Notes: a model not told the origin generated them from the letters alone. DNA of 64,000 nucleotides from an uncultured Planctomycetaceae bacterium (GCA_964385465.1 CAYLPJ010000003.1:148626-212625), one strand, 5' to 3'. Numbered from the stretch's first letter, positions 19,931-62,302 are shown. Translations and numbers: made by a program.

Positions 19931-19936
19931 AGGAGG
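19931..19936 (+). promoter_or_regulatory. Shine-Dalgarno AGGAGG for the giant gene
   Basis: AGGAGG lies 7 nt upstream of the ATG at 19944. Confidence 0.5.
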
Positions 19937-19943
19937 CAGCATC

Positions 19944-37900: not shown

Positions 37901-40900
37901 CGACGACGACAAGCGGCTGAACAACTTCATCCAGGGCGTTCCCGGCACCATGGAGACGTTCGCCGACGGCGGGGTCATCGAGATCATCACCAAGAACTCC
38001 GTCGTGCTGGAGGGGCGTACCTTCGTCCAAGGCGAGGGCGCGCGGGTCACGATCAAGCCGGGCACCTTCTTCGAGCTCGTGCAGATCGCCGGGCAGATCA
38101 GCTCCGCCGATGCCGACAGCCTCATCGAGATCGAGGCCCCCGAGGCCGTCTACGTCAACGGCGAGGTCCTCGCCGGCGTCGAGTGGCAGGGCGGGGTGAA
38201 GGTCGTCACCGGCGAGGGCGCCGACGTGACCGTCAATACCCCGCACGAACTGCGGATCTTCGGGGCCATCACGTCCACGGACGTCATGGAACTGACCGGC
38301 GGCGCCGACCAGGACTGGAACGAGCGCGATCCGCAGGACGCCAGCATTCACCTGACCGGGCAGCTCACCTCGCTCGACGACAACCGCCTGCTGAAGCTCC
38401 AGGGCCCCGACGACGTCCTCGTCGAGGGCAGCATCTTCGTCCGCGGGCGAAACAGCGGCCTGCTCATCGACTCCGGTCAGCGCGTCAAGTTCGCCACCAG
38501 CTTCGTCGAGGTCGAGGACGGCATCGACATCTACGGGCGGGGTGAGTCCACCGACGTCGACACCGGAATCACGTCCAGTGTCTTCGTGGACGCCACGGCC
38601 GTCATCACCAGCTTCCAGAACGGCAGCAACATTCACATCGAGGGCGCCGGGGACGTGGACATCCTCGGCACGGTCCTGGCCGGCGGGGCGATCGGCCCGA
38701 CGGGCGTGACGTGGTCCGGCACGGACAGCGAGGCGGTCGTCACCGCCGGCGAGCAGGTGTACGTGGACAGCGGCATCCTCGCCAGCGACACGGTGACGGT
38801 CGTCGGCGGCCCGGCCGGCGAGGACGACGCCAGCCTCGACCCCGCCAACGACGGGCTGGCCCCGGCTGACCAGCGCCGCGTCAGCGTCGTGGTCACCACC
38901 GCCGGCGGCATGACCGCCGCGGGGCGCACCTCCGACGGCTCGGCCGGGCTCATCCGCATCTTCGGCGCCAGCGGCGTGGAGATGATGGGCCACCTCTACA
39001 GCGGCGCCACCAAGGGCCTGCTGTTCGACGGCGAGGGCAACCTCATCAAGGAGATCATCGACTGGGAAAGTTCCGTCGGCGGCGACGTGTCCATCGAGTC
39101 GCCCGGGCAGGTCTTCATCGGCGGTTGGGCCGAAAACCAGGCCACCGAGGTCGTCCTCGACAGCGACGTCACGCTGCATATCATCCTGGACCCCGACGGG
39201 TCCCCCACGCCCGGGAGCATCACTCTCGACGCCGACGACACGACGAACTTCACCCGCCTGCACGAGTTGCGGCAACTCGTCTCCGATGCCCTGACGGCCG
39301 AGTTCGGCGGGGACATCGACGTGCAGATCGAAAACGACCGCCTCGTGTTCGTGGCGGACCAGCCGTTCACCATGGAGTCCACCAGCACCAACGCCGACCT
39401 GCTCGGCCTCGGCGGCGGGGACCTGGAGGGCAACGAGGTCGTCCCCGACGCGGAGATCGCCGCCGACGTCGCCCCGCCGAGCATGGCCCTGAGCTCCGAC
39501 GCGACCCTCGTGCTCAACGACGGCGAAGGCGACGCGCTGGGCTCGATCACCGTGACCGCCGCCGAGACGGCCGGGTTCACGCAGCTCAGCGAGCTGATCG
39601 CCTTGTTGAATGACAAGCTCAACGACGCGGGGCTGACCGAGATGCTCGCCCGCGACGGCGGCGGGTTGCTGGCGCTGACCGGCGAGTTCGACTTCGAGAT
39701 CGACGAGACCTCCTCGAACGCCGACCTGCTGGGCTTCGACGCCGTCGCCGCCCCGGCCACCGTCGCCAGCGCGCGCGACGCCTCCACCTGGGAGGTTACC
39801 GCGGTGCACTCGCTGTTCGGCAGCGTGGTGGAGACCGGCGGCTACATCGCGGCCAGCGACACCATCTCGCTGTTCAACTGGGACACCGCCGAGCACCCGT
39901 ACATCGGCGGGGAGGTGGGCGTCCGCATCCAGGGCTCCAGCGAGTTGACCACCCACGAGGACGAGAGCCTCATCGAGGTGGACTCGAAGCTCGACGCCGA
40001 GATCGAGGGACACCTCATCGCCGGCGGCGAGGTCGAGACCATCCGCGACGCCGAGACCGGCGGGTTCATCGGCTCGAGGCTGATCGACTTCGGCACGGAT
40101 ACCGACGACACCGAGATCGACATCCAGGCCGAGCACCAGGTGCGGATCGGCACGACGCTGAAGGCCGGCGGGAGGATTCACGTCGTCGGCGGGGACGACC
40201 CCGTCGAGGGCGACCCGGGCGACCCGTTCAACTTCACCGGCTCCAGCGTCCTGATCTTCGGCTCGGCGAAGCTGGAGACCTGGGGCGAGAACAGCGCCAT
40301 CGACATCGAGGGCACCGGCGACATCAAGGTGCTCTCGCCCACGCACTTCCACGAGGTCGAGCCCGAGGAGTGGGCCAAGGGCCCGCGGGCGTTCCTCGTC
40401 GGCGAGGGCCAGTTTGCCCTCGGGGGCGTCCTGCCCGCCGACGTCACGCTCGACATGCGCCGCCGCGACGGGTTGGGCGGGTACCTCACCGAGTCGATCA
40501 CCCTCTCGGCCGGAGACTACGCCAACGATGCCCTGATCGTCACCTCCCTGGAAGCCGAGTTCGCCGCCAGTACGGACTTCACCGACGTGCAGGTGAGCAA
40601 CCCGGGCCGCTACCTGGTGCTGGATGCGCCGTACGACTTCGACATCGAAAGCACGTCGGTCAACCTCGACCTGCTGGGCCTTGCCAGCGTGCAGACGGCC
40701 CGGGTGGTCTATCCCGAGGCCCGGGTTGTCGGCGACGTGAACATCCCGACGACCGGTCGGCTGGTCGAGGATGTGGTGCTGGACCTGAGCATGGACGACG
40801 GCGTCGGCGGGACCATCGACGATACCGTCACCATCGCCGCGGCGGACACGACCGGCCATACCACGCAGGCCGAGCTGCTCACGACGATCAACACGGCCCT

Positions 40901-43900
40901 GGACGCCTCGGCGTTCGCGGACATCGACGCGGTGCTGCGCGACGGCAAGATCGTGCTGACGACCCTCGGGCTGGACTTCACCGTCAAGGGGACCTCCCAG
41001 AACGTCAACCTCCTGGGCCTCCGCGGCGAGTGGGAGACCGAGGAACTCCGCGATCCGGCCGTGCTTACGCCAGCCAGCGACGCTCCGACCACCGGGCAGC
41101 TCATCCGCGACCTCGTGCTCATCATCCGCATCGAGGCGACGGACCTGGAAGACGAACTGCTGGGCGCGGTGATCGTCTCCGCCGCCGACACGACGGACAA
41201 CACGACGCTGGTCGACCTGGTCACCGACATCAACAACGAGTTGACCGGCACGGACGTGCCCCGGTACGTCGGCACGCGGACGTTTGGAGACTACCTCACC
41301 GCGTCGATCCGCGACGGGAAGCTGCTGCTGACCGGCACGCACGAGTTCAAGCTCAGGGAAGCCTCGCAGGCGTTGGAACTGGTCGGCATGGACTCCGGCG
41401 AGGAACTGCCCGCCACCGAGATCTTCTTCGACGCGATCCTGGCCGCCGACGTCGACCTCCCCGCGGCCGTGCTGACCGACCCGGTCACCCTCGACCTGAT
41501 GGTCAACCGCAACGGCTCGGTGACCGAGGACACCGTGACGGTGCCCGTGGACGGCAGCAACTCGACGCTGGCCGACCTGGTCGCCGACGTGGACGCCGCC
41601 CTGACGCTGGCGGGCTTCGGCGATGTCGAGGCCGAGCTCGAAGGCGACCGCCTGGAGCTGGTCAGCCACTGGGAATTCACCGTCAAGGGCACGAGCACCA
41701 ACGCCGACCTGCTGGGCCTTACGACCGTAGACGGCGGCGCGGACGTGGCCGCGTCCCGCCAGGCGTCGATCTTCGAGCTGCTCGGCCCGCGCGACGTTCC
41801 CACCACCGGCGTCCTCGCCGAGGACGTGGCGCTCGAGGTCGAGGCCGTCGACAGCGACGACGTGGTCACCGCGGCGACCGTCACCGTCGCCCGCGAGGAC
41901 ACGCTGGGCAACGCGAGCATCGCCGAGCTGGCCGCGACCGTCGGGGCCGCCTTCGCCGAGGCCGGACTGGACATCCAGGCCGCCGAGGACAGCGGCACGA
42001 TCGTGCTGAGCAGCCTGACGGTGGACTTCGAGGTCTTCACCACCAGCGAGGCCGCCGACCTGCTGGGCCTGACGGACGTCCATGGCGGGTCGGACGTCTC
42101 CTCCGACCGCCCGGACGCCACCTTTGAGCTGGTCCCCGACGACGAGCTCTGGTCCACCGGCGTGCTGCCCGACAACGTCGAACTGGCGATCACACGGGCG
42201 CTGGAGGACCCCAACGACGACCCGGCCCACATCAGCCCGGACCTGCCCGAGGAGATCGACCGGGACGAGGATAACGTGGTCACCGGCACGGTGACGATCA
42301 GCCGTTCCGACACGCTGGACAACACCGCCGGCAGCGAGGCCGACCGCCTGGAGGCTCTCGCCGAGGACATTACCGCGGCGTTCATTCGCGACGGCTTCCG
42401 CCAGATCACCGCGTCGGTTGACAGCGGTAAGATCGTGCTGTCCAGCCCGTATGCGTGGTCGATCGGTGAGGAATCCGCCGAGACCGAGCTGCTGGGCATC
42501 ACCACCGTGCCGACGCCCGAGCTCGAGGCCGAGCGCCCGCCGGAGACCTACCAGGTCACCGGCGTCGACAGCATGATCAACGGCGTGCTCGACGACGACA
42601 TCACGCTGGACCTGTCGATCGACGACGGCGGCGGCGGGACATTCGACGGCGAGGTCAGCCTGCCGGCCTCGGCGACCGACGGGACCGACAGCGGCACCAG
42701 TGCCAATGCGGGCATCGCCGATCTCGTCGCCGACCTCAACGCCGCCCTGGCCGATACCGAAATCCCCGGCCACCCGGGGCAGTTCTTCGGCGACGTCATC
42801 GAGGCGGCCGCCGTCGGCGGCTTCGACGCCAGCGCCGGCGGGGCAGGTGTCGGCTCGGCTGCCGACGCGACCGGGCGGATCGTCTTCGTCGCCGACGAGG
42901 CCTTCACGCTGACCGTCGACGCCGCGGACAGCCTCGATCAGCTCGGCTTGGCCAACGGCACGCAGAGCTCGGCCGCGACGGACCCGGACTGGGAGGTCGC
43001 CGCCTCGGCGGACCTGCCCTCCGACGGCGTGATCACCGGCGACGTGACGCTGCGGGTCACGCTCGACGACGGCGGCTCGGACCTCGACTTCACGGTCACG
43101 CTGCCGGCGGTCGACACCACCGCCAATACCTCGGCAACCGAGCTGCTGCTGGACCTCCAGACCGCCTTGGCGGCCACGGAAGTCCAGGACGTCAGCGAGG
43201 CCGAGTCCACCGGCTCCTACGCCAGCCAGTTCGTCGTCACGCAGATCCGGGACGGCAAGCTGGTGCTGGTCAGCGAGCTGGAGTTCGAGATCGACGGCGA
43301 CGCGTCATCCAATGCCGCCCTGCTCGGCCTGGCCAGCGTCTCCCCGGGCAGCGACGTGGCCTCGGCCAAGCCGCCGGTCCGGCAGGAGCTCCCGGCCGAC
43401 AACGTCCTTCCGCCGCGGCGCTCGTTCACGCAAGACGTGGTCTTCGACCTGCGGATGCTGCCCGAGAATCTCATCGCGAGCATCCCGGTCAACGAGTACG
43501 AGGTCACCGTCGCCGCCGCCGACACCGAGAGCAACGCGGACATCGACGACCTGGTCGCCGACATCGACGACGCGCTGCTGGCCGCGATCGGCAGCCAGGA
43601 TGTCTGGGCGCAGTACCAGGGCGGCAAGCTCTCGCTGGTCAGCTACACGCCGTTCCAGCTCGAGTACTCCTCGGAGAACGAGGGGCTGATGGGCGTGACG
43701 GACATGCCCAACGAGCTCATCGCCGCCAACCGCGCCAGCCAGGACGGCGAGCTGCCCGAGGACGTCACCCTCGTGGTCTGGGTGAATCTGGGCACGAAGA
43801 AGATCGTCGGCGAGGTAACCATCTCCGCTGCCGACACGGCCGACAACCCCGCGGGCAATGGCATCACGGACCTGCTGAACGATATCCAGGACGCGCTGAA

Positions 43901-46900
43901 CGGCGCCGTGCCAGGCGCCATCAGCGGCGGCAGCTATTACGACCTGGACGGCAACCCCTACGACCCGGCGGACTTCGCCGACGACCCGGTCACCACCGGC
44001 GGGATCGCCGACCCGCTGATCCGGATGAAGCTCAAGCACGGCAAGCTGCTGTTCACCAGCCAGTACGAGTTCCGCATCTTCGACGAATTCACCAACCCGG
44101 CCAACCCGACCCCGGCGCTCCAGCACCTCGAAAGCGCCAACGTCCAGCACCTCGGGCTCGACTCGGTCGCCGACGGCGACACGGCCGTGTCCAGCAGGCC
44201 CTTCAACATCCTCGCGCCCGCCGCCGGGTCGGAGGTGAGCTTCACCTCGACCGACGCCGGCGCGGAACTGTACATCGCCGGGGCGGTCAAGAGCGACCGC
44301 ATGATCCAGATGTCCGGCGGGCCGGAAGGGCTGGACCTCGACTGGTCCGGGCTGCTGGAGACCGTCGACGGGCCGATCGATCTGGACCTCGGCACCAGCG
44401 GGCACCTCAAGGGCGACCTGACCGCCGGCGGCGACGAGGGCGACGTGATCCTCGCCGCCGACGACACGCTGCTGATCAACGGCATCATCCGCGCCGACCG
44501 TGACATCGACCTCTCGGCCGGGCACGCGCTGGGCGGGTCGGCTTCCACCGACAGCATCACCATCGACAAGACCGCCTGGCTGGTGACGACCGGCCCCCCG
44601 GACCTGGATCAGCAGGTCACGGTGGACGGCTACAAGCGGGTGGTGGTCGACGGGCCGATCGGCTCGCAGCAGCTCGACGAGCCGCGGATGCTCGGCGACA
44701 TTCACGTCGTCAGCCAGACGCACGACGTGGTGATGACTGCCGAGTCCGGCTGGCTGGAGACGGACGGGCGGATCGTCGTCGAGGGCGACACGGTGGATGT
44801 CGCCGGCGTGATCAAGAACGGCGACACCTCGGCCCCCGCGCCCGCAGACCCGAGCAACCCGCTTGCCGAGAACTTCGAAGTCGTCCTCGACGCGGACACC
44901 GTCGTGCTGCTGACCGGCGACGTGGACGCCCTCGGCTCGGTACTGATCGACTCCCCGAACGCGATCCAGATCGCCGGGTCCGTCGAGGCCGGCGGGATCG
45001 AGACGTTCGAGTTCATCACCGAAGACCGCGACTTCCTCACCGCCGCCGACGAGCAGGTCCGCGTGCTCGCGCCGGGCATCACCGTCGGCGGGGTGACCGC
45101 AACGGTCGAGGCCGGCCAGGACTGGCCCGATACCGACGACGACAGCAACCCCGACCTGACCGTCGGCGACAGCTACCCGCTGGGCGGCACCGTCGTCGGC
45201 TCGGGGCAGGTGCTCCTGCTGGCCGGCGCCGGCGGGATCGAGGTCGCCGCCGCCAGCGAGGTCCGCACGCGAAGCGACGACAGCGAGATTACCCTCCAGG
45301 GCGACTTCATCGATATCCTCGGCTCGCTCTACGCCGGGGCCGAGCGCGGCCGACAGGCCGTCGGCGAGGACCCCGAGGACCTCACCTGGCTGGGCGAGAG
45401 CGCGGGCATCACGCTGGACGCGGCCGAGATGGTCACCTTCGGCGGCGAGGACACGGCCACGGACCTGGACGTCTTCAACGGCTTGGCCGACACCGAAGGC
45501 GAGACGATCACGCGCGGCGGCTCGGCGCGAGCGACCGGGGACGTGGTGATCACTGCCGACGAATCCGGGGACCAGCTCGTGCATATCAACGGGCTCAGCG
45601 CCATCGTGACCGACGCCGAGGCGGTCGCCTCGCCGAGCCCGGGCGCGGCCAGCTCGGTGGACATCACCGCCGGCGACGGCGTGCAGGTCCACGGCGTCAT
45701 CCAGGGCCTCGACCCCGACAGCGACGTGACCATCGTCTCCGGAACGGGCCTGCTGCTTGTGGACGGTTTTGTCGAGGGCGGGCGGGACGTCACACTCACC
45801 GGCGCGACGGCCGGCGACCTCAGCGTGCTGGTCACCAAGCTGCTCTACGAGACCAAGACCGAGACGGTGCCCACCAGCGACGGCGGCAGCGGCGAGTTCA
45901 ACCTGGACATGAACGGCGACCACGTCGACGACTACGGCTTCCTGCTGGAGGTCAACGGCTCCGACGAGATCGTCGTCGACGGCAGCGGCCAGCCCGTCCG
46001 CGTGACCGAAGGCGGCGTCGAGCAGCTCGGCGAGGGCATCGTCTATCTCGTCGAGGACGAAATGGGCGATCCCGTCACCGTGGACAAGGAGGGCCACGAG
46101 CTTACCGAGCACGCCGGCCGGTACTTCCTCGTAGACGAGGCCGGGCAGTTCCTCGACGACCAGGGGCGCGTGATCAACGAGGACGGCCAGCTCCTCGATG
46201 CGATGGGCCGCCCGGTCAACGAGGCCGGCTACCTGATCGACGCCAACGGCAACCTCATCGACGAGTTCGGCGACGCCATCACCATCTACGGCGACCGCGT
46301 CAACGCCGACGGGCTGCTGCTGGACGTCAGCGACAACCTGATCAGCCCCGATGGCTGGCGGATCAACGCATCCGGTGAGTTGGTCAACGCCGGCGGCATG
46401 CCGCTGAACGGCGTGGGCGAGATCCGCACCGTCGTCGAGATCGACGGGACGGACTACCTCGCCGACGAATACGGCAACCTCGTGGACGACGAGGGCAACC
46501 TCATCGACGAGGACGGCTACCTCATCAACGAGCGCGGCGAACGGATCACCGCCGACGGCCGACCGCTGACGCACCTCGACGATCCCGTCGAAGGCAGCGA
46601 CCGCGTCGAGAACCCGCCGACGCCGGAGGCTCCCGTCGCCGGCGACGACCGCAAGACCGGCGGGAGCATCCAGGAGGGCGACGCCCTCAAGTCCACCACC
46701 GGCTTCGTCATGGTCGACCTGCCCCAGCGCCGCGGCGGGGGCGTGGTCAACGGCACGGGGCCGGCCTCGACGGTTACCATCACCGGCGACCACGACGTGG
46801 AGATCCACGGCATGGTCGGGCAGGTGTACCTCGACGAGGGCACCGCCGCCCCGGCCGTGGACACGGTCGAGGTGACCATCACGTCGTCCGAGGACGTCAC

Positions 46901-49900
46901 CATCCTCACCGACGCGCTCGTCAACGCCCGGGACGGCGTCGAGGTCAGCGGGGAGAACGTCTGGGCGCTGGACGAGAGCGTCACGATCACCCGGGCGGAC
47001 CACTCCCGCACGGCGTTGACGGCGACCGGCACGCTGCCGGACGGTGGGACGATCCACGTCGCCCGCAGCCAGATCTACTTCTTCCGCGCGTTGGTGGCCT
47101 CGGCGGGCGAGGTGGAGCTGACGGGCAAGGAAATCAGCGTGTACGGCACGGTGGAGGTCGAGGGCAGCGAGCGCAACGGCGACGGCGACCCGGCGCGGGC
47201 ACGTCTCCAGGCCGACCGCAACGTGGTCGTCCGCGGCGAGGTGCTCAGCGGGGCCGACATCGACATCGACGCCGGGCTGGTCGATCCGACCGGCTGCGTG
47301 GTGGTCTCCGCCGAGGGCAGGCTTGCGGCGGGCTATGGCACGGAGGCGGTCGGCGACATCATGCTTGACGCCGCCGGCGAGGTGACGCTGCTGAGCTACG
47401 ACGACGACGCCAACGACGACCTCCAGTTCGCCGCGCCGTACGTCACCTACGAGCCGGTGTTCGTGGACGTGGTGACCGGCTTCCGGCGCGTCGAGGACGG
47501 CTTCATCCAGCGCCCGGTCGTGCACTACATCCCGACGATCACGACCGAGCAGACCGGCTTCATCGACGTGAAGGTCGGCAGCGAGTTCGGCAGCGCCGAG
47601 GTCCGGCTGTTCCAGGACGGCTACTGGTCGGACACGGCCCCGGCGGACGAGCGGTTCCGCGAGTACTTCATTCCGGGCGTGGACTACGAGATCGACGACC
47701 TCGACTGGCCCGGCAAGGCCCCGGACGAGAACCCGGGCCTGTATCGCAAGGTGGCCCCCGGCGAGTACGAGCTGATGGACACCTCGACGTTTGACCTGAT
47801 CGGCGAGGTCACGAACTACGGCGGCCCGCCGATCGACCCGGGCACGACGTTCGCCCAGGGCGTGACGATCGACGGGGCGGTCAACGCCGTCCGCCAGGAC
47901 CGCACGCCCACCCTCGGCGGGCTCTTCTCGCCGGGCAGCACCACGGTCGGCGGCGGGGAGCTGCCTCTGCTGACCGGCCAGTTTGCCGGCGAGGAGTCGG
48001 TGAGCTACGCCGACGTGCTGACCACCATGGAGAGCGAGGTCTACCTGGTGATCGACGATGTCTTCGTCCAGCAGACCTACAAGCCGTGGGACGAGCTGAC
48101 CGCCACCGAGAAGGCCAACGCCATCCTGGATCACCTCGGCTACCGCAAGCTGTTCGACGTGCGGTTCCTCGAAGAATTCGAGAAGACCGTCTATATCACC
48201 AGCCCGAACGACCGGTTCGAACTGGAGCGCGACTCGGCCATCACGGACCGTTTCGACGGCAAGACGGTCAACGAGATGGTCGAGGAAGAGAACGCCACGC
48301 GGGTCAAGGGCGTCAACTTGAGCTTCGCCGACGGCGAGTCCGTGGTCGCCCTCGACGAGCTGGCGGCGCTGAATGCCGGCAACGGTGAGTTCGCATTCAC
48401 CGAGGCCTCGCCGGCCTTGGAAGGCGTGACCTTCCAGGACAGCGGTGGCGAGAAGAAGTTCGTCCCCGGCGTGGTCGTCGACGGCGTCTTCCGCGTCACG
48501 CCCTCCGACAACCTGGCTATCCGGCCGGACTGGTCCGTCACCACCGACAGCTACACGATCACCAAGAAGTACTTCGACTTCTGGTTCCCCGAGTTCATCC
48601 CCTTCGACCCGGCCGTGCATTACGACCCCGGCGAGCACGCCAGCGTCGAGGAAGCGGCCTACCGCCATTGGACGCCACCGTCGGAGATGGTGGACGAGGT
48701 GCTGGACGGCGTGCCCCCGGAGGACCACGAAGAGGCGCTGGAGGAGTTCAGCGAGCAGTTCTTCATCGCCGGGCGGGACTACGACGAGGAATACGCCAAC
48801 CCGGCCAAGGAGGACAGCGGCGACTACATTGCCAGCTTCTTCGAGCGGGAGGACACGATCCTCGCCGACGGCGACTGGGAGAAGGTGTACGGGACCGAGA
48901 CGTCGCTGGGGCGGATCAACCGCAACTTCGAGGGCATCCCGACGGTGCACCTGTGGGAGACGGACCTGACCGATCAGGACCGCGAGGTCTTCGAATACAC
49001 GCTGGACGACGGCACGGAAATCTTCCTGCGGGCGCCCGAGCAGTGGTGGAGCGAGTACGAGGTCACCGCCCTGGGCAACGACCGCGTGGACCCCGACGAC
49101 AAGAAGCTCCAGTATGTCGGCAACGTCGAGACGTACGACGAGGAGGTCGGGCAGATCCGCGAGGTCGCCCAACTGGAGTACATCCAGGAGTGGTCCTCGG
49201 CCGTGCCGCATAAGCCGAGCAACCCCGAGGAAGGCGACCTGTGGGTCGTGGATGACTACGACGACAGCCCGGGACGCTGGGTGGTCTACCTCCGCGACGA
49301 CCCGCACGAGGTCTGGCCCGACGGCGATCCGACGGCCTACGAGCAGTACAGCATCAACGACGGGCGGTCGGTCAGCGAGTTCGACCCGCCGTATGCCGAC
49401 ACCGTGTTCACCGGCTTCTACGGCCTGCTGGCCGACGCGGCGTTCGCGCCGCTGGCCGCCGGCGGGCTCGAGCTGACCGAGGCCTTCCTGCCGGAAGGCA
49501 CGGTCGCCAGCCTGGTCACCTACGACAACTCGGTGAAGCTCGATTACGACTTCGAGGACTGGGACACCGGCGAGCCGGGCACGGTGGACGACCAGGGCAG
49601 CGTCTCGGGCTTCACGGGCGACAACTGGGCCGAGGGCACGGACGCCAACGGGCGGCTCGTCTACGGGCAGATCAACGCCGGTGACGAGGAGGACGGCCTG
49701 GCCGTCGCGCAGACCAACATCAACCTCGAGCAGTTGAACGACGATCCGCGCACCGAGCACGACGTCGCCGAGATGCGCCGCTACGAGGGGCGCGACTACT
49801 ACCTGACCATCGGCCACTACGACTGGTACGAGGCCGGCAACGTGCGAAGCTGGCCGTGGCATCTGGCGGTCGTCAACGACGCCGCCGAGAACGCCCTTAT

Positions 49901-52900
49901 CCGGGACATGATCTCCGCCGCCGACACGTCCGCCTGGCTGGGCGGGTACGACCTCAACGGCGTCAGCCACAACTCATGGTCCATGGAGTGGGTCCACGGC
50001 TCGGGGATCAGCAACGGCTCGGGCTACAGCAACTTCCACCCCTCCGAGCCGAACAACGAGGGCCCGTACAACGACGAAGACCACCTCCAGATGTGGACCA
50101 GCGGCTACTGGAACGACCTCAACGCGGTCGAGGAGCTGCGGGCCGTGCTGGAACGCGAGCCGGACTGGGGCGACCCGTTCGACGGCGACGAGACCCAGCA
50201 CGACTTCATCTACAAGATGACCACCGACTGGCGGGCTATCGAGGACGTCCGCTCGGACATCACCTACCGCGCGTTCACCGAGGCCCACGACATCATCGAC
50301 AAGCGCCCGCGGTACGAGACCATCGAGTCCGAGGTCCCCGTCATCAAGATGGAGCAGGTGACCAACTGGACCTACGAACCGGTCGTCGAGCAGGTCCTCG
50401 ATTTCGCCAGCAGCGCCGTGCCCGCCGACGGGCCGGGAAGCCTGGCGATCTTCGACCGCCAGGCCCTCTCGGCCACGGGCGACATCACCATCAACGCCGG
50501 CTCCGACGTGCTGGTCCGCTCCAGCGTGGCCGCCGGCGAGACCGACGGGGCCATCTCCGTCAACTCCAGCGGCGGGGCGGTCACGGTCGGCACGGACATG
50601 CCCGCCGAGCCGAAGCTGTACGACATGATCCACCTGACCGCCGGAGAGGCGATCGACATCGACGCCGCGGGCGGCGCGGTCGAGATCGGCGCCACGGCCG
50701 AACTGCGGACCGAAACCGACGCCCCGGCGCCGCCGAACGGCAACAGCGGCGGCGAGCCGGTGCAGGATATCTCCGTGGACGCCTCCGATGCCGTCCGCAT
50801 CGACGGACAGGTCGCCGCTCGCGACAACGTCGCCGTCACCGCCGCGGCCGACGTGACCCTCACCAGCAGCCTCCAGGCCGTCAACCTCATCGCCGCCGAG
50901 GCCGGCAACGGCGGCGGGGCCGGCACGGTCTTCGTCCACGACCCCGACGCGCCGCTCGACGGCGAGTTCGACGAGGACGACCAGAGGCCGGCGATCGGCG
51001 GCTTCCTCACCGTCACCGGCACCGACGGCGAGATCCGCCTGACGGCCGGCGCCGCAGGTGGGGACATCTCCCTCATCGACGCCGAGTTGGAGGCCGACCT
51101 GATCACGCTGTCGGCCCCGGCAGGCGAAATCCTCCAGCCCGCGGCCGTCACGCCTCCGGGCGATGGGGACACGCCGACCACCGGCGGGCAGCTCCGGGCC
51201 GTGACACTCGACGCCGACGCCGGCGCGGGCATCACGCTGGAGAACCTCCACGTCGGCGAGGTCACCGCGGTCGTCACCGGACCCGGCGACGTCGTGCTGC
51301 ACGACACGGATCTGGCCGGCGTGGCCGGGGGCGCCGATCCCGCGACGGCCGGGCTGGACCTGGTCAACGTCCGCACGGCCGACGGGTCGATCGACGTGAC
51401 GGCCCTGGGCAGCGGCCTGGTGGCCACGGACGTCCGCAGCCTCGGCGGCGGGGACGAGGACGACGTGACGCTCAACGCCGAGATCGGCGCCGGGGGCTCG
51501 ACATCGCTGACGGTGCACCACGTCGAGGCTGCCGGGGATGCAGACGTCTTCCTGAACGTGCAGGGCCAGCTGATCCAGCCGGACGGCTCGGTGAGCGCCG
51601 ACGAGGTGACGGTCCAGGCCAACGGCGCGACGGAGATCCACACGCAGGCGTCGTCGATCGACATCGACCTGGCCGCGCCGGGCAGCCTGGTGATCGTCGG
51701 CGATTCGCCGACGCTGACGCTGGCGAACGTCCGCGTGCTCAACGGCGACTTGACGGTCATCAACGCCGGCGACATCGACGCGCAGAACGTCGAGCTGGTC
51801 ACCGATTGGAACACCTCGAAGGTCCCGCCGGAGGCGAACGTCATCCGCCTGGAGACCACCGAGGGCAGCGGCGGGACGATCACCGTCGGCAGCATCGTCG
51901 GGGGCACCTACGCCGCCAGCGAGGCCGAGGCCGACGCCATCCGCCTGGACATGCTCAACTCGATCCTGCGGAAGATCGATCCCGCCGGCATCCCCGCCGA
52001 GTTCCTCACCGACGGGACGGACGGGGAGGGCGACCCGATCCAGTTCGTCGAGCTGACGCAGCCCGAGGCGGACGACCTGGCGGCCATCGTCACCGACGAC
52101 TTCGCCGCCGATGGCGAGCTCATGGCCGCCGCCACGGCCTTTACGATGTACAGCCGTGTGCTCGACGTCCTGGGCGTGGCCTACGAGGGCACGTACGAGG
52201 AGACCGACGAGCAGGCCGTCGAGGACGAGGCGCGGTCGCTGTTTACGCTCAGCCGCGGGCTCAGCTCGGCCGGGCGCGTGGAACTGTACTCCGACGGCGC
52301 CATTACCAGCCCCGTGCCGCTGGCCCCGCTGGGTGCCGGGCCGATGCCGCCGTCCAACGGCGTGGGCATCGTGGCCGACACGCTCGTCGCAGTGGCCGGG
52401 TCCGACATCACCGGCCTGACCACGGCGGTCAATCGGATGGAGGAGGTCTGCTCGATCGGCGGGTCGGCCTCGGACGTCCGCGACGTCGACGGCATCGGCG
52501 AGCTCTCGCCCGGGGTGAAGGTCGACCTGGCCGAGGCCCTGGCCGGATCGCTGGCGATCACGGCACAGAACGCGCTGATCGTCACCTCGGTACGGACGCC
52601 GGCGTCCGACGCGCAGTTGTCGCTGACCAGCGAGCTCGGCGGGCTGTTCGTCGAGCGCAACGGCGGGGGCAACGCTTTGGAGTCCGGCGGCGGGATCAAG
52701 CTGGAGACCCTTGCGGCCGACCGGGACCTGACGGTCACCGGCCACGTCCAGGCCGGCGGCAAGCTGGAGTTGGCCACGCGGGGCACCGTCAGCTCGCTGG
52801 GCCAGGGCGTGGACCTCGACGTCGGCGACCTGTCGGTGGACTCCGACAGCTCGGTCGTGCTGTCCGGCGAGTTCAATACCCTGGGCGAGGTGGACGTCGT

Positions 52901-55900
52901 CAGCGACGGGAACATCGCCCTCAGCCAACTGGATGAGGCCTTCGAGGGCTTCCGCGTTTCCAACCAGCGGTTCTCGCTCCAGCAGCGAATGCTCCAGACG
53001 CTGGGCGACAACCTCGATGCACAGATTGACGCGCTCTCGACATACCAGGCCCTGATGGCCGCCGCGGCCAGCAGGGAGGCCGGCCAGGGCGACGTGCTGA
53101 GCACGCTCGAGGCCCAGCAGCTCCAGCACCTCGTGCGGATGCCGCTGGAGCTCCAGCATCAGCAGCTTCAGACGCAGCTCGCGGACCTCGGCAGCCTGCT
53201 GGAGGTCCAGGACCAGTTGCCGGATACGCTGGGCGAGATGGAGGGCTACGATCAGATCGTTCAGCAGCGCGACCAGGTGACCGACCAGCTTCAGAGCGCT
53301 CAGAGCACCCTTGGGCAGGTCCGGACGGACCTGCTGGAGATCATCGGCGATACCGACGACCTCGTCGCCGACCTGGAGGACGTGCAGACAACGATCGCCG
53401 ACCGTCAGGCCTATCGCGACGGGCTCGGCGGCGTGCTGAGCGACATCCAGGCGGAGATCAACAGCCGCCCGGACTACACCCCGCCGGCCCTGAACGGCGG
53501 CGAGGAAGGCGCGCCCGACCTCAGCCTCGACGCGCTGAACAGCGTGGACCTCGACGAGCTCAGCGACGAGCAACTCGGGCGGCTCCACCACGACGTCCAG
53601 GGCGTCGCCGACGAGGTGGACGGCGAGCTCCAGGACCTCGGCCAGCAGGTCGAGACGCTCCAGGACCAGATCCACGCCAACCAGGGCGACCTGGCGTTCG
53701 TCCGCGAGGACCTCTCGGCCGTGCGGGACACGGTGCAGGGCCTCGGCGGTCAGCTCGACGCCCTGGACGCTCAGATCGCCGCACACCAGGCCGCCCTGGC
53801 CGAGATCGAGACGATCATCGGCCTCAGCGATCCGGCGGCCATGGACCCGGCTGTTCGCGACCTGGACGACAACGCGGACGTGCTCAGCGACACGATCAAC
53901 AGCGGCGTCGACGCGCTGCGCGACCAGCGCCTGCTCGAGACCGTCAACGCCAGCCTGGCGGACGTCAACAGCCAGATTGCCCGCGTCAATGATGCGATCG
54001 ACGCCGTGGCCCCGCTGACGGACACGACCGACTTCGGCGTGCTGGACTCGGGTATCCGCGGGCTGACGGCCTACCAGGACGTGCTCAGCGGCGCCATCCT
54101 GGACGGCATCGCCGGCCTGCCGGACCGGACGTACTCCGAGCTTCAGGCGCAGGTCGCGGACGTCATGGCGGATATCCAGCAGGTCGACCAGGCCCTCGCG
54201 GCCCTGGAAGCCATCCAGGGCGCGTCGGGCTTCGCCGTTGTCGACCGCAACGTCCGCAGCCTCGCGAGCGTCCAGGACCTGCTGACGCCGACGTACCAGC
54301 AGATCGTCTCCGACGTGACCGCGCTGCCGACGTACTCCAACCTGCTCGAAGAGATCGGCACGATGCAGCAGCAGTTGGAGCAGGAGCGGCCACTTGACGA
54401 GGTCCAGGCCGATCTCCAGCAGGTGGGCAAGCAGCTCGACACCCTCGCTGCGGAGATCGCCCCGATCGAGCTCCAGTTGATCAAGCTCGCCTATCGCTAC
54501 CTCAGCCACCAGAAGCGCGACATCCTGCCGAGGGTGATGGCGTGGCACGACGAGATCGGCAACCGCCTGGGCGGGCGCGTCGGCAGCCCCGAAGACGTGG
54601 AGCCCGATCCCGAGGCGTTCCCCATCGACTGGGACTTCTACGATCTCGGCCGGATCCACGGCTTCGATGCCCATCTCGACCAGATGGACGACGAGCAGTT
54701 CGGCAAGTTCCTCGACGGGCTGGAGCCCGCGGAGCTGGCGGCTGTCCAGGACGTGCTGGCCACCCAGGCGAGCAAGTCCGAGGGCCTGGACAAGGAGCTT
54801 CAGGACCTCGACGCCGCCGGCGGCGCCGACCCGTTGGACCCCGAGCTGCCCCAGAACCGGTTCGACCTGCTGCCGCAGTGGGAGCAGTTGGACAAGCAGC
54901 GCGACGATCTCCTGCTCCAGCAGGCCGACCTCCAGGCAGAACACGACCGTATCGTCGCATTGCAGGACCAGTTGGATGCCCTGCAAGGCCGGCGTGACGA
55001 CCTCGAGGGCGCCCTCATCAGCGCCCAGGAGTTCGCCTTCAGCGAGGCCGACAACCTCCAGGGCATCCGCGGAGGTCTCCAGGAGCAGCTCAACGGTCTG
55101 AACACCGACCGGCGGAATCACGAGGGCCAGCTCAGCGACCTCCAGGGCGACCTGTCCCCCGAGTTGAGCCGTCTCTACGCCGAACGCGAGGACCTCACCG
55201 GCCAGCGGAACACGCTGGAAGCCGAGCAGGGAACCGTCACCGGCTACATCTTCGGGGTCGTGGAGTTCCTGCCCGGCGAGCAGAGCCGCCTGAACGAGGC
55301 CCTCGGCGGCATCCAGCAGCAGCGCGAGGCGGTCAACACGCAGTACCAGGACGCCTTGGCCGAAGAGAGCACGTTGGAGCAGCAGGAGACGCAACTGGTC
55401 GCCGAGCGGGACACGCTCCAGACGCAGGTCACGCAGATCGAGGAGGATATCTCCGGCTACCAAACCACGCTGGAGGACCTGGACGACCAGGAGGCCGCGC
55501 TTCAGACCGAGCTGGACGGCATCCTCCAGACGAAGCAGACCGAGCGCGTCGGCCTGCGGGACGACCTGGTCGGGGTCCAGCAGCTCCAGGCCGACTACGC
55601 TCTCGTCGCCCAGGATTTCCAGTCGCTCCAGCACGGGCTGAACCTCGGCGCGATGGCCGGGGAGTTCCGCGGCAACGTCCTCGATGACATGCAGCGGATG
55701 AGCCGGCTCCGCGCGGATCTCGAGCAGATGCGCCAGACGCAGGAGAGGCTGGAGTACGGGCTGCGGCGGACGCAGATGGGCGGCGACGGGCTGACCAGCA
55801 TCAGCATTCGCGCCCAGGGCTTCAGCGAGCAACTGCTCTCGGCCGGCGTGGAGCTGTCCCTGGCTCAGCCCGGGGACGACTCGGAGGACCCCGGCGACAA

Positions 55901-58900
55901 GGTTGCCCAGGACGACTTCTCCGGCTGGTACCTCTACACGCATTCGGACACCGAGCAGACGCACTACCGCGACGCTCGGGGGACCGAGAACGACATCGAG
56001 GACGACGTCTTCCGCGTCCGCGAGTTCAGCCCGTTCTACGTCGACGAGCAGGCCTACTACCGGCGGCTGGACGACGTCGACGCCACGCCGGGCGAGCTCG
56101 GCGACGACGAGGAGACGTTCTACGCCTGGGACAGCGCCGTGCTGGAGACGTTCTACGTCTTCGACGGCACGTACTCGGTGCAGAAGTTCGCCGGTACGAC
56201 CAGCGAGGAGCGCACCGAGGTCCGCCCCGACACCGGCGAGGAATTCACCTTCACCATCGACAGCCCGCTCTACGACGTGCACGACTACCGTGCCCACTTC
56301 CTCGCGGACTCGCCCGATACCGAGTTTGCCGACGCCGAGCTGTTCGTCACCAGCGACGACGAGACCGGCGAGCACGTGCGGGCCTTCCAGGACATCCTCG
56401 ACGACCTGTCGGCCGAGCTGGGCGAGGAAGGCCGGCTCATCGTCCTCTACCCGGGCCAGACGCTCGATGACCTGGATGTCGGCGAGGTCACCGAGGATGA
56501 CATCCTGGTGACCTTCCTGGACTTCACGCCCATCTACCGGCAGGTCTCCAACAGCGAGATCGCCTTCGACGACCCGCAGTCCCACGGCGAGCAGGTGTTC
56601 GAAACGCTGCCTTCGCTGCTGACGGAAGTCTACCGCGGCGGCGTCGAGCTGCTGCCTGTCGAGGCCCCCGAGGCCGGCAACGTCTTCACCGGCGGGCTGC
56701 GGGCGTCCGCATCGGAGCTGATCGAGCTGCTGGCGACCGACCGGCTGACCGGGCTGGAGACCAACGCGCTGCTGTCGGCGCCGACGGTGCGGCTGGCCAG
56801 CGGCGACGTCCTGGAACTCGGCGGGCTCATCCTCGCCAGCGAGTCCGTCCAGGTCGATGCCGGCGGCGGGCTCGTGTTGTCCGAGGACGCCCGCGTCAAG
56901 GCCGGCGCCGTGAACGTCAACAGCGCCTTCGGCGACGTCGTCGGGCGCCAGGGCAGCGTCATCGAGGCCGACACGGTCGATGTCTTCGGCGCCGGGATGG
57001 TGGACATCGTCACCGACGCCCGCGCCGTGGCCGCGTCGGCCGGCCTGTCCGGCGACGTGGTCGTCACCAACATCGGCGACGATCCGGTGACCGTGGAAAC
57101 CCAGACCGACGGCGGGACGGTGGATGTGCGGTCCGATGGCACGATCCAGGCGGGCAACGTCGCCGGCGGCGACGTCTCCCTGATGGCCGGCGGCCGCGGC
57201 GACGTGCTCATCGGGCAGGTCGACGCCACCGGCAACGTCACGCTCGACGCCGCACGCGGTATCGGGTCGTACACGCCGCCGCCTCCCAACGGGCCGCTCG
57301 TGCCCCTCATGGCCGAGCCGCGGCTCAACGTCGGCGGCGACCTGAACGTCATCGCCGGGCTCGGCGCGGACCTGCCGGGCGGCACGGTCGGCGGCGAGAG
57401 CTCCGTTACCGACAACGTCAGCCTGGTGATCGACTCGCTCGACGACCTCCCGGCCACGGGGCCGGCCCACATCGCCGTTGACGGCGACGTGGTGATCGAG
57501 ATCGCGCTGACGCTCCACTACGACCTCACCATCGAGGCCGACAACATCATCTTCTCCGGCGCCGGGGCGATCCTGAATCCCGGCGGCGAGACCAGCCTCA
57601 AGGCCGACGGCGCGGTCATGCTCAACGGCATGCCCTCGCAGGACAACGACGGCGGGAAGGAGGGCACGGTCGTCCTGTCCGGCGAGAGAGTCTCCATCGA
57701 GGCGGCCGAAGTCCTCGGCGGCGGCGAGCGGCTCATCCGCGCCGACCTGCTCCGCGTCGTCACCGAGACGGACCTGGCCCTGATGACCGACGTGGACACC
57801 CTCGAGGCGATCATCACCGGCCGCGGGGACCTTCGCGTCGAGGCGGGCGGCTCGATCGAGCTGCGGGACGTGCAGGTGCACGACGGCAGCGTGATCGTTG
57901 AGGCCCCCGGGGACATCGTGGCCACCGGCGTGGTGTTCGGGACGGACCGTTACGCCAACCGCCTGAGCCTCCAGGCCGGCGGGGAGCTGACGCTGGGCAA
58001 CGTGGTCGTCGGGCGACTGATGGGCACCGAGCTCGAGACCGGGGCGGGGCTGACCAACGCCGGCGGCGTGCTGGACGTGGAGGTCACGCAGGACGACGAC
58101 AGCGTCGTCGAGGACCGGCCCGGCAGCTTCACGGCCCGGGTGACTGACCCGACGCACACCTACGAGCCGGGCGAAACGGTCGAGATGGGGATCGAGTTCG
58201 GCGACGGCTCCCAGCAGATGCTGGACGTGGACGTCGCCGGTCCCCGGGTCGAGGTCATCGGCCCGCCGAGCGAACGGTTCGGCGGCGTGCAGGACTACAG
58301 CGGCATGGGTGAGGCCGTCGTGCTGGCCGACGTCAACGCCGACGGCCTCGCCGACCTGATCCTCGGCGAGGGCCGCCACGACCTGCCCGACGCCGAGGAC
58401 ATCGGCCGAGTGCAGGTCCGCCTCGGCTCGCCCGACGGCCTCGTCGACGACCCGCTGACGCTCTGGGGCAGCGAAAGCGACGACGAGTTCGGCCAAAGCA
58501 TCGCCGGCGGCGACGTCAACGGCGACGGCGTCGACGACATCATCGTCAACGCTCCCGGCTACACGAGCCTGCGGACCACCACCACCGTCCAGCCGGACGG
58601 CACGGTGACGGTCGAGGAGTTCGAGGTCGACGGCGGGTTGTTCGTCTACTACGGCTCGGACGCCGGCCTGAGCGTGGAGCCGTCCTTCGTGCAGCTCCCG
58701 GCCATCCAGAGCATCGCCCCGGCCGGGGACGTCAATGGCGACGGCATCGACGACATCCTGGCCATGGACCCCTCGGCGGAGGTCGACCGGGTCATCGACG
58801 GAGAGCTGGAGACGCTCCCGTTCGCCGGGCGCGTGACGCTGCACCTCGGCTCGGCCGAGGGCCCGGCCGCCGAGCCGGTCTGGAGCTACGAAGGCAGCGA

Positions 58901-60869: not shown

Positions 60870-60963
60870 GCCGGCACGGATGCCCGGCCACTCCCCGCGA
60901 AGATACGGGCCTGCCGGGCTGCTACAATGAATGGTCCCCTTAGAGGAAGAGGAGGATGCAGAC

Positions 60964-61563
60964 ATGAAATCCGGTTATTGGATCCTGCCCGCGTGTGTGC
61001 TGCTCGCCGCGGCTACCGGCGCGAGGGCGGACTACTTGTTCCACGCCGACAACGTGGTCGGTGCGTTTGCCGGCACGGATTTCGACGTGACGGTGATGCT
61101 CACCTCCGATGACTCCAACGCCGCCGACAGTGTGGTCTTCACCGTGCGGTTCGACCAGCCCGGACTGCTGCTCCGCGGGTACCAGTGGCAGGACGTGTTC
61201 AGCGCGGGCTTCGATCTCAGCGAGCCCGGCGCGGCTGCGCTGAGCGGGGGGCCGGTGTCGATCCTGGCCGACACGCATGAGTCCACCACCTATGTCGGCG
61301 ACATGGATATCTACCTCGACGCCTTCTCTCCGGTAGGCTCGTTCGACAGCGGTCAGCTCGTGACACTCCAACTCAGCGTGCCGTGGGACATGGCGTACGA
61401 CGAGATCACCGCGGACATCCTGCCCGACCAGGTCTACAACGACGGGCAACCCGTCGCCGCGCTGCCCTCATCCTTCACCATCACCCCCGAGCCGGCCGCG
61501 CTCGCCGTGCTGGCCGCCGGAGCCGTCGGGCTGCTCCGTCGGCGGAGGCACCGAGCGGCGTAG
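60964..61563 (+). CDS. PEP-CTERM sorting-domain protein (putative exosortase substrate), secreted
   Basis: ATG at 60964 with a GGAGG 8 nt upstream. N-terminal signal peptide (WILPACVLLAAATGARA). C-terminus 'TITPEPAALAVLAAGAVGLLRRRRHRAA*' is PEP, then a hydrophobic span, then an Arg cluster. Confidence 0.7.
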   Translation: MKSGYWILPACVLLAAATGARADYLFHADNVVGAFAGTDFDVTVMLTSDDSNAADSVVFTVRFDQPGLLLRGYQWQDVFSAGFDLSEPGAAALSGGPVSILADTHESTTYVGDMDIYLDAFSPVGSFDSGQLVTLQLSVPWDMAYDEITADILPDQVYNDGQPVAALPSSFTITPEPAALAVLAAGAVGLLRRRRHRAA

Positions 61564-61569
61564 CGCGTG

Positions 61570-62292: not shown

Positions 62293-62302
62293 TGGGACAC
62301 TC

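What the first reader, a model, noticed from the sequence alone, without database searches (positions are those of the whole stretch)
60964..61563. PEP-CTERM (exosortase-substrate) protein gene 94 nt downstream of the giant gene
The 199-aa secreted protein ends in PEP-[hydrophobic 14]-RRRRHRAA, a textbook PEP-CTERM sorting signal. Its placement directly after the giant gene, same strand and short gap, suggests co-transcription and a functional link, for instance a surface-anchored partner or matrix component. It also implies an exosortase/EPS system elsewhere in the genome.
Basis: partly seen in the sequence, partly recalled or inferred. Interest (0 to 1): 0.55.

Follow-up and report, generated by a model that had tools for sequence, protein, structure and literature searches.

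The report
Cohesin anchor for a giant protein
The small gene after the 13,705-residue giant gene encodes a secreted cohesin-fold module with a PEP-CTERM sorting tail, and the giant protein carries the matching dockerin plug near its end, so the pair most likely forms a cellulosome-style dock that holds the giant protein on the cell surface of a planctomycete-like bacterium.

Summary
The ORF at 60964-61563 (+) encodes 199 aa, starts 94 nt after the giant gene's stop, has a GGAGG ribosome-binding site, and ends in PEP-AALAVLAAGAVGLL-RRRRHRAA. TIGR02595 scores above its curated cutoff.

The giant protein carries an Ig-like module followed by a type-I-like dockerin (aa 13438-13515). This scores 27.2 bits against Pfam Dockerin_1, above the gathering score, and its family profile matches solved dockerins at E 4e-11.

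The gene pairing is conserved. Four of the seven cohesin relatives I looked up sit beside a dockerin-bearing gene; the other three contigs are too short to tell. In the reverse test, 10 of 17 loci (mostly Planctomycetota MAGs) retrieved with the Ig module alone carry a cohesin-family ORF downstream on the same strand. Three of the seven negatives lack downstream sequence.

The best reading is a diderm counterpart of the sortase-anchored ScaE cohesin, using an exosortase signal instead. Binding, co-transcription and the presence of an exosortase in this genome remain untested. I rate it a new variant of a known kind, of moderate to high interest.

The parts
19752..60869 (+). Giant gene encoding 13,705 aa from the TTG start (the true start may lie further in). 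The product is acidic (pI 4.05) and almost free of Cys. It is the proposed cargo tethered by the anchor.
   Evidence: The last ~1000 aa hold FG-GAP x7, PKD, Big_5 and Dockerin_1. Pfam finds nothing in aa 1-5000, only RTX and DUF3659 in aa 5001-10000, and nothing in aa 10001-12706. The C-terminal ~2000 aa are 37% identical to the orthologue in L002.
59742..60062 (+). Ig-like module (Big_5-like, motifs W-S-AA-HG ... ALP-AARY) immediately before the dockerin. It is conserved as a dyad with the dockerin in all partner proteins and may play the role of an X module.
   Evidence: Pfam Big_5 is sub-threshold (20.7 vs 23.6 bits). Alignments A3 and A4. This module was the query that retrieved 17 related loci.
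60063..60296 (+). Type-I-like dockerin module, giant protein aa 13438-13515. It has two DxxxDxxxxxxD calcium-loop and helix repeats, with loops at about 60117-60152 and 60219-60254.
   Evidence: Pfam Dockerin_1 scores 27.2 bits on the isolated module (gathering score 22.9), and 22 of 24 family modules hit it. The family profile matches solved dockerins 2ccl_B at 4e-11 and 1ohz_B at 1.6e-10. D19, D23, D30, D53, G58 and D64 are invariant.
60297..60866 (+). 190-aa low-complexity Ala/Arg/Pro-rich tail after the dockerin. Its function is unknown.
   Evidence: Tails of 63-339 aa follow the dockerin in relatives.
60870..60963 (+). 94-nt intergenic gap. It contains GGAGG at 60951-60955 and a lone TACAAT at 60923-60928.
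   Evidence: No terminator-like or sigma-70-like site was found. The RNA fold is unremarkable, z -0.62.
60964..61029 (+). Signal peptide, aa 1-22, with predicted cleavage ARA|DY.
   Evidence: By inspection. The A-x-A|(D)Y junction is conserved in the family. The model shows helix 7-15.
61030..61482 (+). Cohesin-fold module, aa 23-173.
61483..61563 (+). PEP-CTERM sorting signal, aa 174-199 (T-PEP, 14-residue hydrophobic helix, RRRRHR, AA), plus the TAG stop.
   Evidence: TIGR02595 at 19.8 bits, above the cutoff of 16. PF07589 at 19.4 bits, below 20.7. The model shows helix 178-198. Family conservation.

Best explanation
The 199-aa protein is a single-cohesin surface anchor, and the giant protein is its cargo.

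Shown:
- The small protein has three parts: a signal peptide, a cohesin-fold module, and a PEP-CTERM tail.
- The giant protein has an Ig-like module followed by a type-I-like dockerin, 190 aa before its C-terminus.
- The two gene types are adjacent on the same strand in many genomes, mostly Planctomycetota.

Inferred:
- The two genes are expressed together.
- The small protein is exported by Sec. Its PEP-CTERM tail is then processed by an exosortase encoded elsewhere, which leaves the cohesin fixed at the outer face of the envelope.
- The secreted giant protein binds this cohesin through its calcium-loaded dockerin. It is therefore held non-covalently by its C-terminal end, with about 13,400 acidic residues projecting outward as a fibre or adhesin.

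This is the logic of the sortase-anchored ScaE cohesin of Ruminococcus flavefaciens, transposed to a diderm bacterium and an exosortase signal. Nothing indicates a role in cellulose degradation.
For: PEP-CTERM tail:
- TIGR02595 scores above its cutoff, and the tail is conserved across the family.

Cohesin fold:
- The model has pLDDT 89.7.
- 9 of 56 relatives reach Pfam Cohesin.

Dockerin:
- Pfam Dockerin_1 scores 27.2 bits on the isolated module, above the gathering score, and 22 of 24 family modules hit it.
- The family profile matches the dockerin chains of solved cohesin-dockerin complexes at E 4e-11.
- Two calcium loops are invariant.

Linkage, forward test (starting from seven cohesin relatives):
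- L002: the 39%-identical homologue lies 134 nt after an orthologous gene of at least 2795 aa with the same FG-GAP/PKD/Big_5/dockerin end.
- L009: the homologue lies 71 nt after a 783-aa Ig-dockerin protein.
- L003 and L004: the homologue lies directly upstream of dockerin proteins with quite different bodies (CARDB; LamG/Calx-beta). In L004 the dockerin scores 31.1 bits, above the gathering score.

Linkage, reverse test:
- A search with the Ig module alone returned 17 loci.
- 10 of them hold a cohesin-family ORF downstream on the same strand.
- Three of the seven negatives have less than 1 kb of downstream sequence.
- Gaps range from -8 to 189 nt except in the frameshifted L020, and three are start/stop overlaps.

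Gap and taxonomy:
- There is no terminator in the window's gap.
- PEP-CTERM proteins and an EpsH exosortase are documented in Planctomycetes: Rhodopirellula baltica has 12 PEP-CTERM proteins plus RB2461 (PMC1569441).
Against: - The window protein itself does not reach Pfam Cohesin at any E-value up to 10. Its identity to solved cohesins is only 10-17%, so the assignment rests on fold and on relatives.
- No binding was shown or could be modelled.
- The second calcium loop has Leu at position 3 (DVLADGRISSAD), where Asn or Asp is usual.
- The dockerin is followed by a 190-aa tail rather than being terminal.
- Four informative Ig-dockerin loci (L012, L014, L018, L019) have no cohesin gene within 10 kb, so adjacency is common but not obligatory.
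- No exosortase was found in the window or in the flanks of relatives, and the rest of the genome could not be examined.
- What exosortases attach their substrates to is not established. The final location of the cohesin (outer membrane, exopolysaccharide or released) is therefore an assumption.
- A lone TACAAT at 60923-60928 could be an internal -10 element.
Confidence: 0.66

Rival explanations
1. The small protein is an independent PEP-CTERM matrix or floc protein. It is exported and handed to exopolysaccharide like other exosortase substrates, and it merely lies next to the giant gene without binding it.
For: The PEP-CTERM tail is genuine. PEP-CTERM proteins are generally diverse, small, Ser/Thr-rich and associated with exopolysaccharide (PMC1569441). 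Weak matches to floc PepA and other PEP-CTERM families are confined to the tail.
Against: Recurrent adjacency to dockerin-bearing genes with unrelated bodies, in either gene order, is not expected for an unrelated neighbour. The domain is a cohesin fold, and the neighbour carries the complementary module.
Confidence: 0.12
2. The cohesin-like beta-sandwich binds something other than a dockerin, such as a carbohydrate, another part of the giant protein, or itself. Alternatively it acts as a periplasmic chaperone or export partner for the giant protein. The gene linkage is real, but the mechanism is not cohesin-dockerin docking.
Confidence: 0.14
3. The PEP-CTERM tail is not processed, either because there is no cognate exosortase or because the signal is non-functional. 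It then acts only as an inner-membrane anchor, so the cohesin faces the periplasm and retains or stages the C-terminal end of the giant protein there.
For: No exosortase was seen in the window or in related flanks. The Pfam PEP-CTERM score is just under the gathering score. Some relatives replace PEP-CTERM with other C-terminal ends.
Against: TIGR02595 passes its cutoff. The PEP motif and the Arg cluster are conserved across the family. Other PEP-CTERM ORFs occur in related loci L004, L014 and L020. Planctomycetes are known to carry the system. Exosortases are normally encoded away from their many substrates.
Confidence: 0.08

Closest known systems
ScaE anchoring scaffoldin of Ruminococcus flavefaciens (single cohesin plus LPXTG/sortase signal; binds the X-module-dockerin dyads of ScaB and CttA; PMC5301203; structures 2zf9, 4iu2)
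   Same: Both are small secreted proteins with one cohesin and a C-terminal tripartite sorting signal (motif, hydrophobic helix, basic cluster). Both are encoded in the same cluster as their dockerin-bearing partners. In both, the partner's dockerin is preceded by a conserved accessory module. 2zf9 is among the fold hits and is the best PDB sequence hit of the family profile.
   Different: The signal here is PEP-CTERM (exosortase, diderm envelope), not LPXTG (sortase, peptidoglycan). The cargo is a 13,705-aa protein almost without recognisable domains, not a cellulosomal scaffoldin. Sequence identity is about 11-15%. The dockerin resembles type I rather than type III. No binding data exist.
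PEP-CTERM/exosortase (EpsH) protein-sorting system (Haft et al. 2006, PMC1569441; TIGR02595)
   Same: Signal peptide, PEP motif, 14-residue hydrophobic stretch and basic cluster at the extreme C-terminus. The mature part is low in Cys and Lys and acidic. Planctomycete-type relatives.
   Different: Most PEP-CTERM proteins have no recognisable domain or known function. This family has a defined protein-binding fold and a genomically linked candidate ligand. The exosortase partner is unverified for this genome.
Non-cellulosomal cohesin-dockerin systems: the hypothetical 'planctosome' of freshwater Phycisphaerae (PMC6461901), the Archaeoglobus fulgidus cohesin 2xdh, and Clostridium perfringens cohesin modules (2jh2, 2vo8, 2w1n)
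   Same: Cohesin and dockerin modules are used outside cellulose degradation. 2xdh is the top Foldseek hit. The hosts are Planctomycetota-type bacteria.
   Different: The planctosome model anchors through a lamin-tail domain on a 2,210-aa protein and assembles peptidases. Here the anchor is a minimal cohesin with a PEP-CTERM tail, and the cargo is a giant protein. No paper in the searched library contains both 'PEP-CTERM' and 'cohesin'.
SLH-anchored cohesin proteins of Clostridium thermocellum (OlpA, OlpC, SdbA; fold hits 3ul4, 4dh2, 5k39)
   Different: They anchor through S-layer-homology repeats to the Gram-positive wall, and they form part of a polysaccharide-degrading machine.

Membership tests
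PEP-CTERM sorting-signal proteins (TIGR02595 / PF07589) | Near-invariant Pro-Glu-Pro motif | tested here: met
   PEP at aa 175-177. In the 56-member family P175 is invariant and P177 is at least 90% conserved.
PEP-CTERM sorting-signal proteins (TIGR02595 / PF07589) | Hydrophobic transmembrane stretch of about 14 residues followed by a basic cluster, at the extreme C-terminus | tested here: met
   AALAVLAAGAVGLL, then RRRRHR, then AA and the stop. The model shows helix 178-198. Definition taken from PMC1569441.
PEP-CTERM sorting-signal proteins (TIGR02595 / PF07589) | HMM score at or above the curated cutoff | tested here: met
   TIGR02595 scores 19.8 bits against a cutoff of 16. Pfam PF07589 scores 19.4 against 20.7, just below.
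PEP-CTERM sorting-signal proteins (TIGR02595 / PF07589) | N-terminal signal peptide | tested here: inconclusive
   MKSGYWILPACVLLAAATGARA|DY fits a Sec signal, and the junction is conserved in homologues. No dedicated predictor was available.
PEP-CTERM sorting-signal proteins (TIGR02595 / PF07589) | Exosortase (EpsH/Xrt) gene in the same genome | not testable with these tools
   Only 64 kb of the genome is available, and it contains none. None was found in the flanks of relatives. The source genome was not in the genome-contig collection.
PEP-CTERM sorting-signal proteins (TIGR02595 / PF07589) | Several PEP-CTERM proteins per genome | not testable with these tools
   A pattern scan found only this one in the window. 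Additional PEP-CTERM ORFs occur in related loci L004, L014 and L020.
Cohesin module (PF00963) | Sequence match to the Pfam Cohesin model | tested here: not met
   The window protein gives no hit at E up to 10. 9 of 56 family members do, best 9.2e-7. The family profile hits cohesins 2zf9 and 5n5p only weakly, at E 0.02 and 0.16.
Cohesin module (PF00963) | Cohesin-type beta-sandwich fold | tested here: met
Cohesin module (PF00963) | Binds a cognate dockerin | not testable with these tools
   Only genomic linkage to dockerin genes is available.
Dockerin type I (PF00404), in the giant protein | HMM score at or above the gathering score | tested here: met
   The isolated module 60063-60296 scores 27.2 bits against 22.9. 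The same module scanned within a 999-aa segment gave 20.4 bits. The family profile matches solved dockerins at E 4e-11.
Dockerin type I (PF00404), in the giant protein | Two tandem segments, each a 12-residue EF-hand-like calcium loop plus a helix | tested here: met
   DVSGDLRVTSAD and DVLADGRISSAD. D at positions 1, 5 and 12 of both loops is invariant or nearly so in 24 modules. Position 3 of the second loop is Leu, which is atypical.

The most novel reading that the evidence does not exclude
Planctomycetota and their relatives may possess a widespread, previously undescribed surface-display system. In it, minimal cohesin proteins fixed by the exosortase/PEP-CTERM pathway act as sockets for Ig-dockerin 'plugs' carried by giant and other large secreted proteins. 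Cohesin-plus-dockerin relatives would serve as adaptors. This would give a PEP-CTERM protein class a defined molecular function, and it would explain how proteins of more than 10,000 residues are retained on a diderm cell.
Probability: 0.45. Interest if true: 0.78.

Novelty: new variant of a known kind. Interest (0 to 1): 0.62.

Why it matters
Two long-standing gaps meet at this locus. The first is what PEP-CTERM/exosortase substrates actually do. The second is how bacteria hold giant extracellular proteins on their surface.

A cohesin socket carrying an exosortase signal, genetically coupled to a dockerin-bearing 13,705-aa protein, turns both into a simple binding experiment with two small recombinant modules.

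It also extends the cohesin-dockerin principle to a new anchoring chemistry in diderm bacteria. That principle is best known from Gram-positive cellulosomes and is widely used in synthetic biology. Finally, it gives a recognisable two-gene signature for annotating many uncharacterised proteins in Planctomycetota-type MAGs.

Tried and rejected
- The word-indexed homologue search with the protein, and later with its family alignment, found essentially only the protein itself. The exhaustive HMMER search was needed to find the family.
It worked only with the three-sequence Ig-dockerin alignment A4. The window's own genome was not among the hits, so the organism is inferred only from relatives.
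I considered a cohesin-linker-dockerin chimera but dropped it, because the tool returns no contact or PAE information and the input would not be a window sequence.
- The afdb50 fold library was unavailable.
- The paper by Peer et al. 2009 on non-cellulosomal cohesins is not held.
- NCBIfam found nothing in the first 500 aa of the giant protein. Rfam found nothing in the window.
- The promoter and terminator scan and the RNA fold of the gap were negative.
- Multi-TM ORFs in all fetched flanks turned out to be a cytochrome c assembly protein, an M48 peptidase, a LysE translocator, an FtsW/RodA protein and one ORF with no Pfam match. None is an exosortase.
- I rejected the ATG at 60931 as the start, because of the RBS position, the acidic extension it would add, and the start positions of homologues.
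- I rejected the long antisense ORFs inside the giant gene (for example 49974-58844 on the minus strand) as artefacts of 69% G+C.

Full report
**1. The observation**

The ORF at 60964-61563 (+) is real and encodes 199 aa. The giant ORF 19752-60869 (13,705 aa from its TTG) stops at 60867-60869, so the gap is exactly 94 nt on the same strand.

A GGAGG lies 8 nt before the ATG at 60964. The upstream ATG at 60931 would place an acidic MVPLEEEEDAD stretch ahead of the signal peptide, and homologues do not use it.

TIGR02595 matches residues 174-195 at 19.8 bits (curated cutoff 16). Pfam PF07589 gives 19.4 bits against a gathering score of 20.7.

The tail is conserved in the protein's family. P175 is invariant, and P177, R193 and R195 are at least 90% conserved. 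27 of 56 members hit Pfam PEP-CTERM. It therefore meets the sequence definition of Haft et al. 2006 (PMC1569441).

**2. The rest of the small protein**

The word-indexed search found only the protein itself. The exhaustive HMMER search of 1.84 billion representatives found 92 relatives at E<=1e-3. Most are about 200 aa with the same three parts: a signal peptide, a ~150-aa domain and a PEP-CTERM tail.

An AlphaFold2 model built on this alignment is confident (pLDDT 89.7, pTM 0.79). The evidence that it is a cohesin fold is as follows.
- Foldseek against the PDB returns almost only cohesin modules at the top: 2xdh at 6e-7, then 5lxv, 6kgc, 4ums, 2ccl, 1ohz and others, with target TM-scores of 0.6-0.75.
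- 9 of 56 relatives reach Pfam Cohesin (best 9.2e-7).
- The two best PDB sequence hits of the family profile are cohesins, including ScaE 2zf9, though weakly (E 0.02 and 0.16).

The window protein itself does not reach Pfam Cohesin. I therefore call it a cohesin-fold module of a divergent family rather than a model-certified member.

**3. What the giant protein offers**

Its last ~1000 aa contain seven FG-GAP repeats, a PKD remnant, a Big_5-like Ig module and a Dockerin_1 match.
- Scanned alone, the 78-aa module at 60063-60296 (aa 13438-13515) scores 27.2 bits, above the gathering score of 22.9. 22 of 24 homologous modules also hit Dockerin_1.
- A profile of these modules matches the dockerin chains of solved cohesin-dockerin complexes: 2ccl_B at 4e-11, 1ohz_B at 1.6e-10, 4fl4_A at 7e-10.
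- The alignment shows two DxxxDxxxxxxD calcium loops with invariant Asp residues.

The remaining ~12,700 residues are almost blank to Pfam, with only an RTX repeat and DUF3659. The protein is very acidic (pI 4.05) and nearly Cys-free, as is the mature small protein.

**4. Is the adjacency meaningful?**

*Forward test.* I looked up the genomic contexts of seven cohesin-family relatives.
- The closest relative (39% identity, L002) lies 134 nt downstream of a contig-truncated gene of at least 2795 aa. That gene is 37% identical to the giant protein over about 1970 aa and ends in the same FG-GAP/PKD/Big_5/dockerin arrangement.
- In L009 the relative lies 71 nt after a 783-aa protein with the same Ig-dockerin dyad.
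- In L003 and L004 the order is reversed. The cohesin gene directly precedes dockerin proteins with quite different bodies: CARDB/Big_13 of at least 3314 aa, and LamG/Calx-beta of 1040 aa with Dockerin_1 at 31.1 bits.
- The remaining contexts (L006/L007 and L008) are contigs too short to show the upstream module.

*Reverse test.* I searched 185,579 species-representative genomes with peptide patterns from the Ig module only. This gave 17 loci. Fifteen are MAGs labelled Planctomycetaceae, Planctomycetales, Thermoguttaceae, Phycisphaerae/Phycisphaerales or Sedimentisphaerales; one is labelled Verrucomicrobiota and one Armatimonadia.

A family HMM run on six-frame ORFs found a cohesin-family ORF downstream on the same strand in 10 of the 17 loci. 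Three of the seven negatives have less than 1 kb of downstream sequence.
- Apart from L020, whose dockerin gene is frameshifted, each cohesin ORF directly follows a dockerin-bearing gene. In L015 and L016 that gene is the second of two in tandem.
- Stop-to-start distances range from -8 to 189 nt, and three are overlaps.

The family has only about a hundred 50%-identity representatives among 1.84 billion proteins, so chance co-location at this rate is negligible.

**5. Variations**

- The C-terminal end of the cohesin protein varies. It is PEP-CTERM in the window and in L011, L013, L015, L016, L020 and the first ORF of L024.
- It is a dockerin-like end in L022, L026 and P0061 (the second L024 ORF, a 1270-aa protein), and in P0006, P0028 and P0031. 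This is the pattern of adaptor scaffoldins.
- One MAG (CAYRVX01) has at least five Ig-dockerin modules on four contigs but only one of those loci has a cohesin gene. This suggests one socket serving several plugs.

**6. Mechanism**

*Shown:* the domain composition of both proteins and the conserved linkage of the two gene types.

*Inferred:*
- Sec export and signal cleavage at ARA|DY.
- Recognition of the PEP-CTERM tail by an exosortase encoded elsewhere.
- Display of the cohesin at the outer envelope.
- Calcium-dependent docking of the giant protein's dockerin, with the Ig module acting like the X module of XDoc dyads.

The result would be a ~13,400-residue acidic fibre tethered by its C-terminal end.

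The gap has no terminator-like hairpin, no sigma-70-like promoter and no unusual RNA structure. A lone TACAAT at 60923-60928 keeps an internal promoter possible. The downstream gene (a phosphoribosyltransferase, 61570-62535, minus strand) is convergent and the upstream genes are divergent, so the two genes form an isolated plus-strand pair.

**7. Comparison with known systems**

The closest analogue in function is ScaE of Ruminococcus flavefaciens. It has one cohesin and an LPXTG signal, is attached by sortase, binds the XDoc dyads of ScaB and CttA, and is encoded in the same cluster (PMC5301203). The present case differs in three ways:
- the sorting signal (PEP-CTERM/exosortase);
- the envelope type (diderm);
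- the cargo (a giant non-enzymatic protein).

Non-cellulosomal cohesin-dockerin pairs are known in all domains of life. A 'planctosome' anchored by a lamin-tail domain has been hypothesised for freshwater Phycisphaerae (PMC6461901). Giant dockerin-rich proteins have been described in Omnitrophota without a cohesin anchor (bioRxiv 10.1101/2023.11.21.568195).

The held library contains no paper with both 'PEP-CTERM' and 'cohesin'. The single paper with both 'exosortase' and 'dockerin' treats them separately, in ANME archaea. This library is incomplete, so I rate the finding a new variant of a known kind rather than categorically new.

**8. What remains open**

- Binding is not demonstrated.
- Co-transcription is not demonstrated.
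- The presence of an exosortase and of other PEP-CTERM proteins in this genome could not be tested. None is in the window or in related flanks. Planctomycetes are documented carriers of the system.
- The acceptor to which exosortases attach their substrates is unknown in general.
- The organism is inferred to be a Planctomycetota-type bacterium. This rests on relatives, 69% G+C and neighbouring sulfatase genes.

**9. Verdict**

Confidence in this mechanism is about 0.66, and interest is 0.62.

Noticed in passing
window 19752-57869: About 12,700 of the giant protein's 13,705 residues have no Pfam match apart from one RTX nonapeptide repeat and a DUF3659 hit. The protein has pI 4.05, about 0% Cys and 1% Lys. 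Near the N-terminus is the motif LEPRLLLS, which I recall as typical of large planctomycetal secreted proteins, but NCBIfam found nothing in the first 500 aa.
   Followed up: partly
L024 11601-15413 (= P0061); also L022 10526-11428, L026 11070-12032, P0006, P0028, P0031: Some relatives combine the same cohesin-fold domain with their own dockerin-like DxDxDG repeats. P0061 is a 1270-aa protein with long internally repeated regions between the two. This is adaptor-scaffoldin-like and suggests multi-tier assemblies.
   Followed up: partly
L012, L013, L014, L019 (all from MAG CAYRVX01): One Planctomycetaceae MAG carries at least five Ig-dockerin modules on four contigs, some in tandem genes. Only one of those loci holds a cohesin-PEP-CTERM gene within 10 kb. 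This hints at one anchor serving several cargo proteins.
   Followed up: partly
window 60923-60928: A TACAAT hexamer lies 36 nt upstream of the small gene's ATG. The corresponding -35 position matches poorly (AAGATA), and the site did not pass the promoter scan. It could be an internal promoter.
   Followed up: no
window 61561-61572: The small gene's stop (61561-61563) and the stop of the convergent phosphoribosyltransferase gene (61570-62535, minus strand) are only 6 nt apart, and no terminator-like hairpin was detected between them.
   Followed up: no
L020 10331-10568: The dockerin of this relative is split across two reading frames. This is either a frameshift in the MAG assembly or a pseudogene. 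The cohesin ORF downstream also lacks an obvious start codon.
   Followed up: no
window 49974-58844 (-) and other antisense ORFs: Very long open frames run antisense to the giant gene, up to 2956 aa. They have no family matches and are best explained by 69% G+C, not by genes.
   Followed up: partly
window 60297-60866; L002 7633-8388; L006 1-348: The dockerin is followed by a 63-339-aa Ala/Pro/Arg-rich tail in nearly all partner proteins. Short motifs recur in it, for example 'MLDVL' in the window and 'RMDVL' in L006. Its role is unexplained.
   Followed up: no
window 1-19320: The neighbourhood holds two sulfatases (489-3233 +, 3263-4615 -), an AcrB/HlyD efflux pair (6806-11157 -), a rhodanese, an epimerase, and the pyruvate dehydrogenase E1/E2/E3 genes (13646-19317 -). 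After the gene pair come a PRTase and an Fpg glycosylase. There are no exopolysaccharide or exosortase genes.
   Followed up: yes
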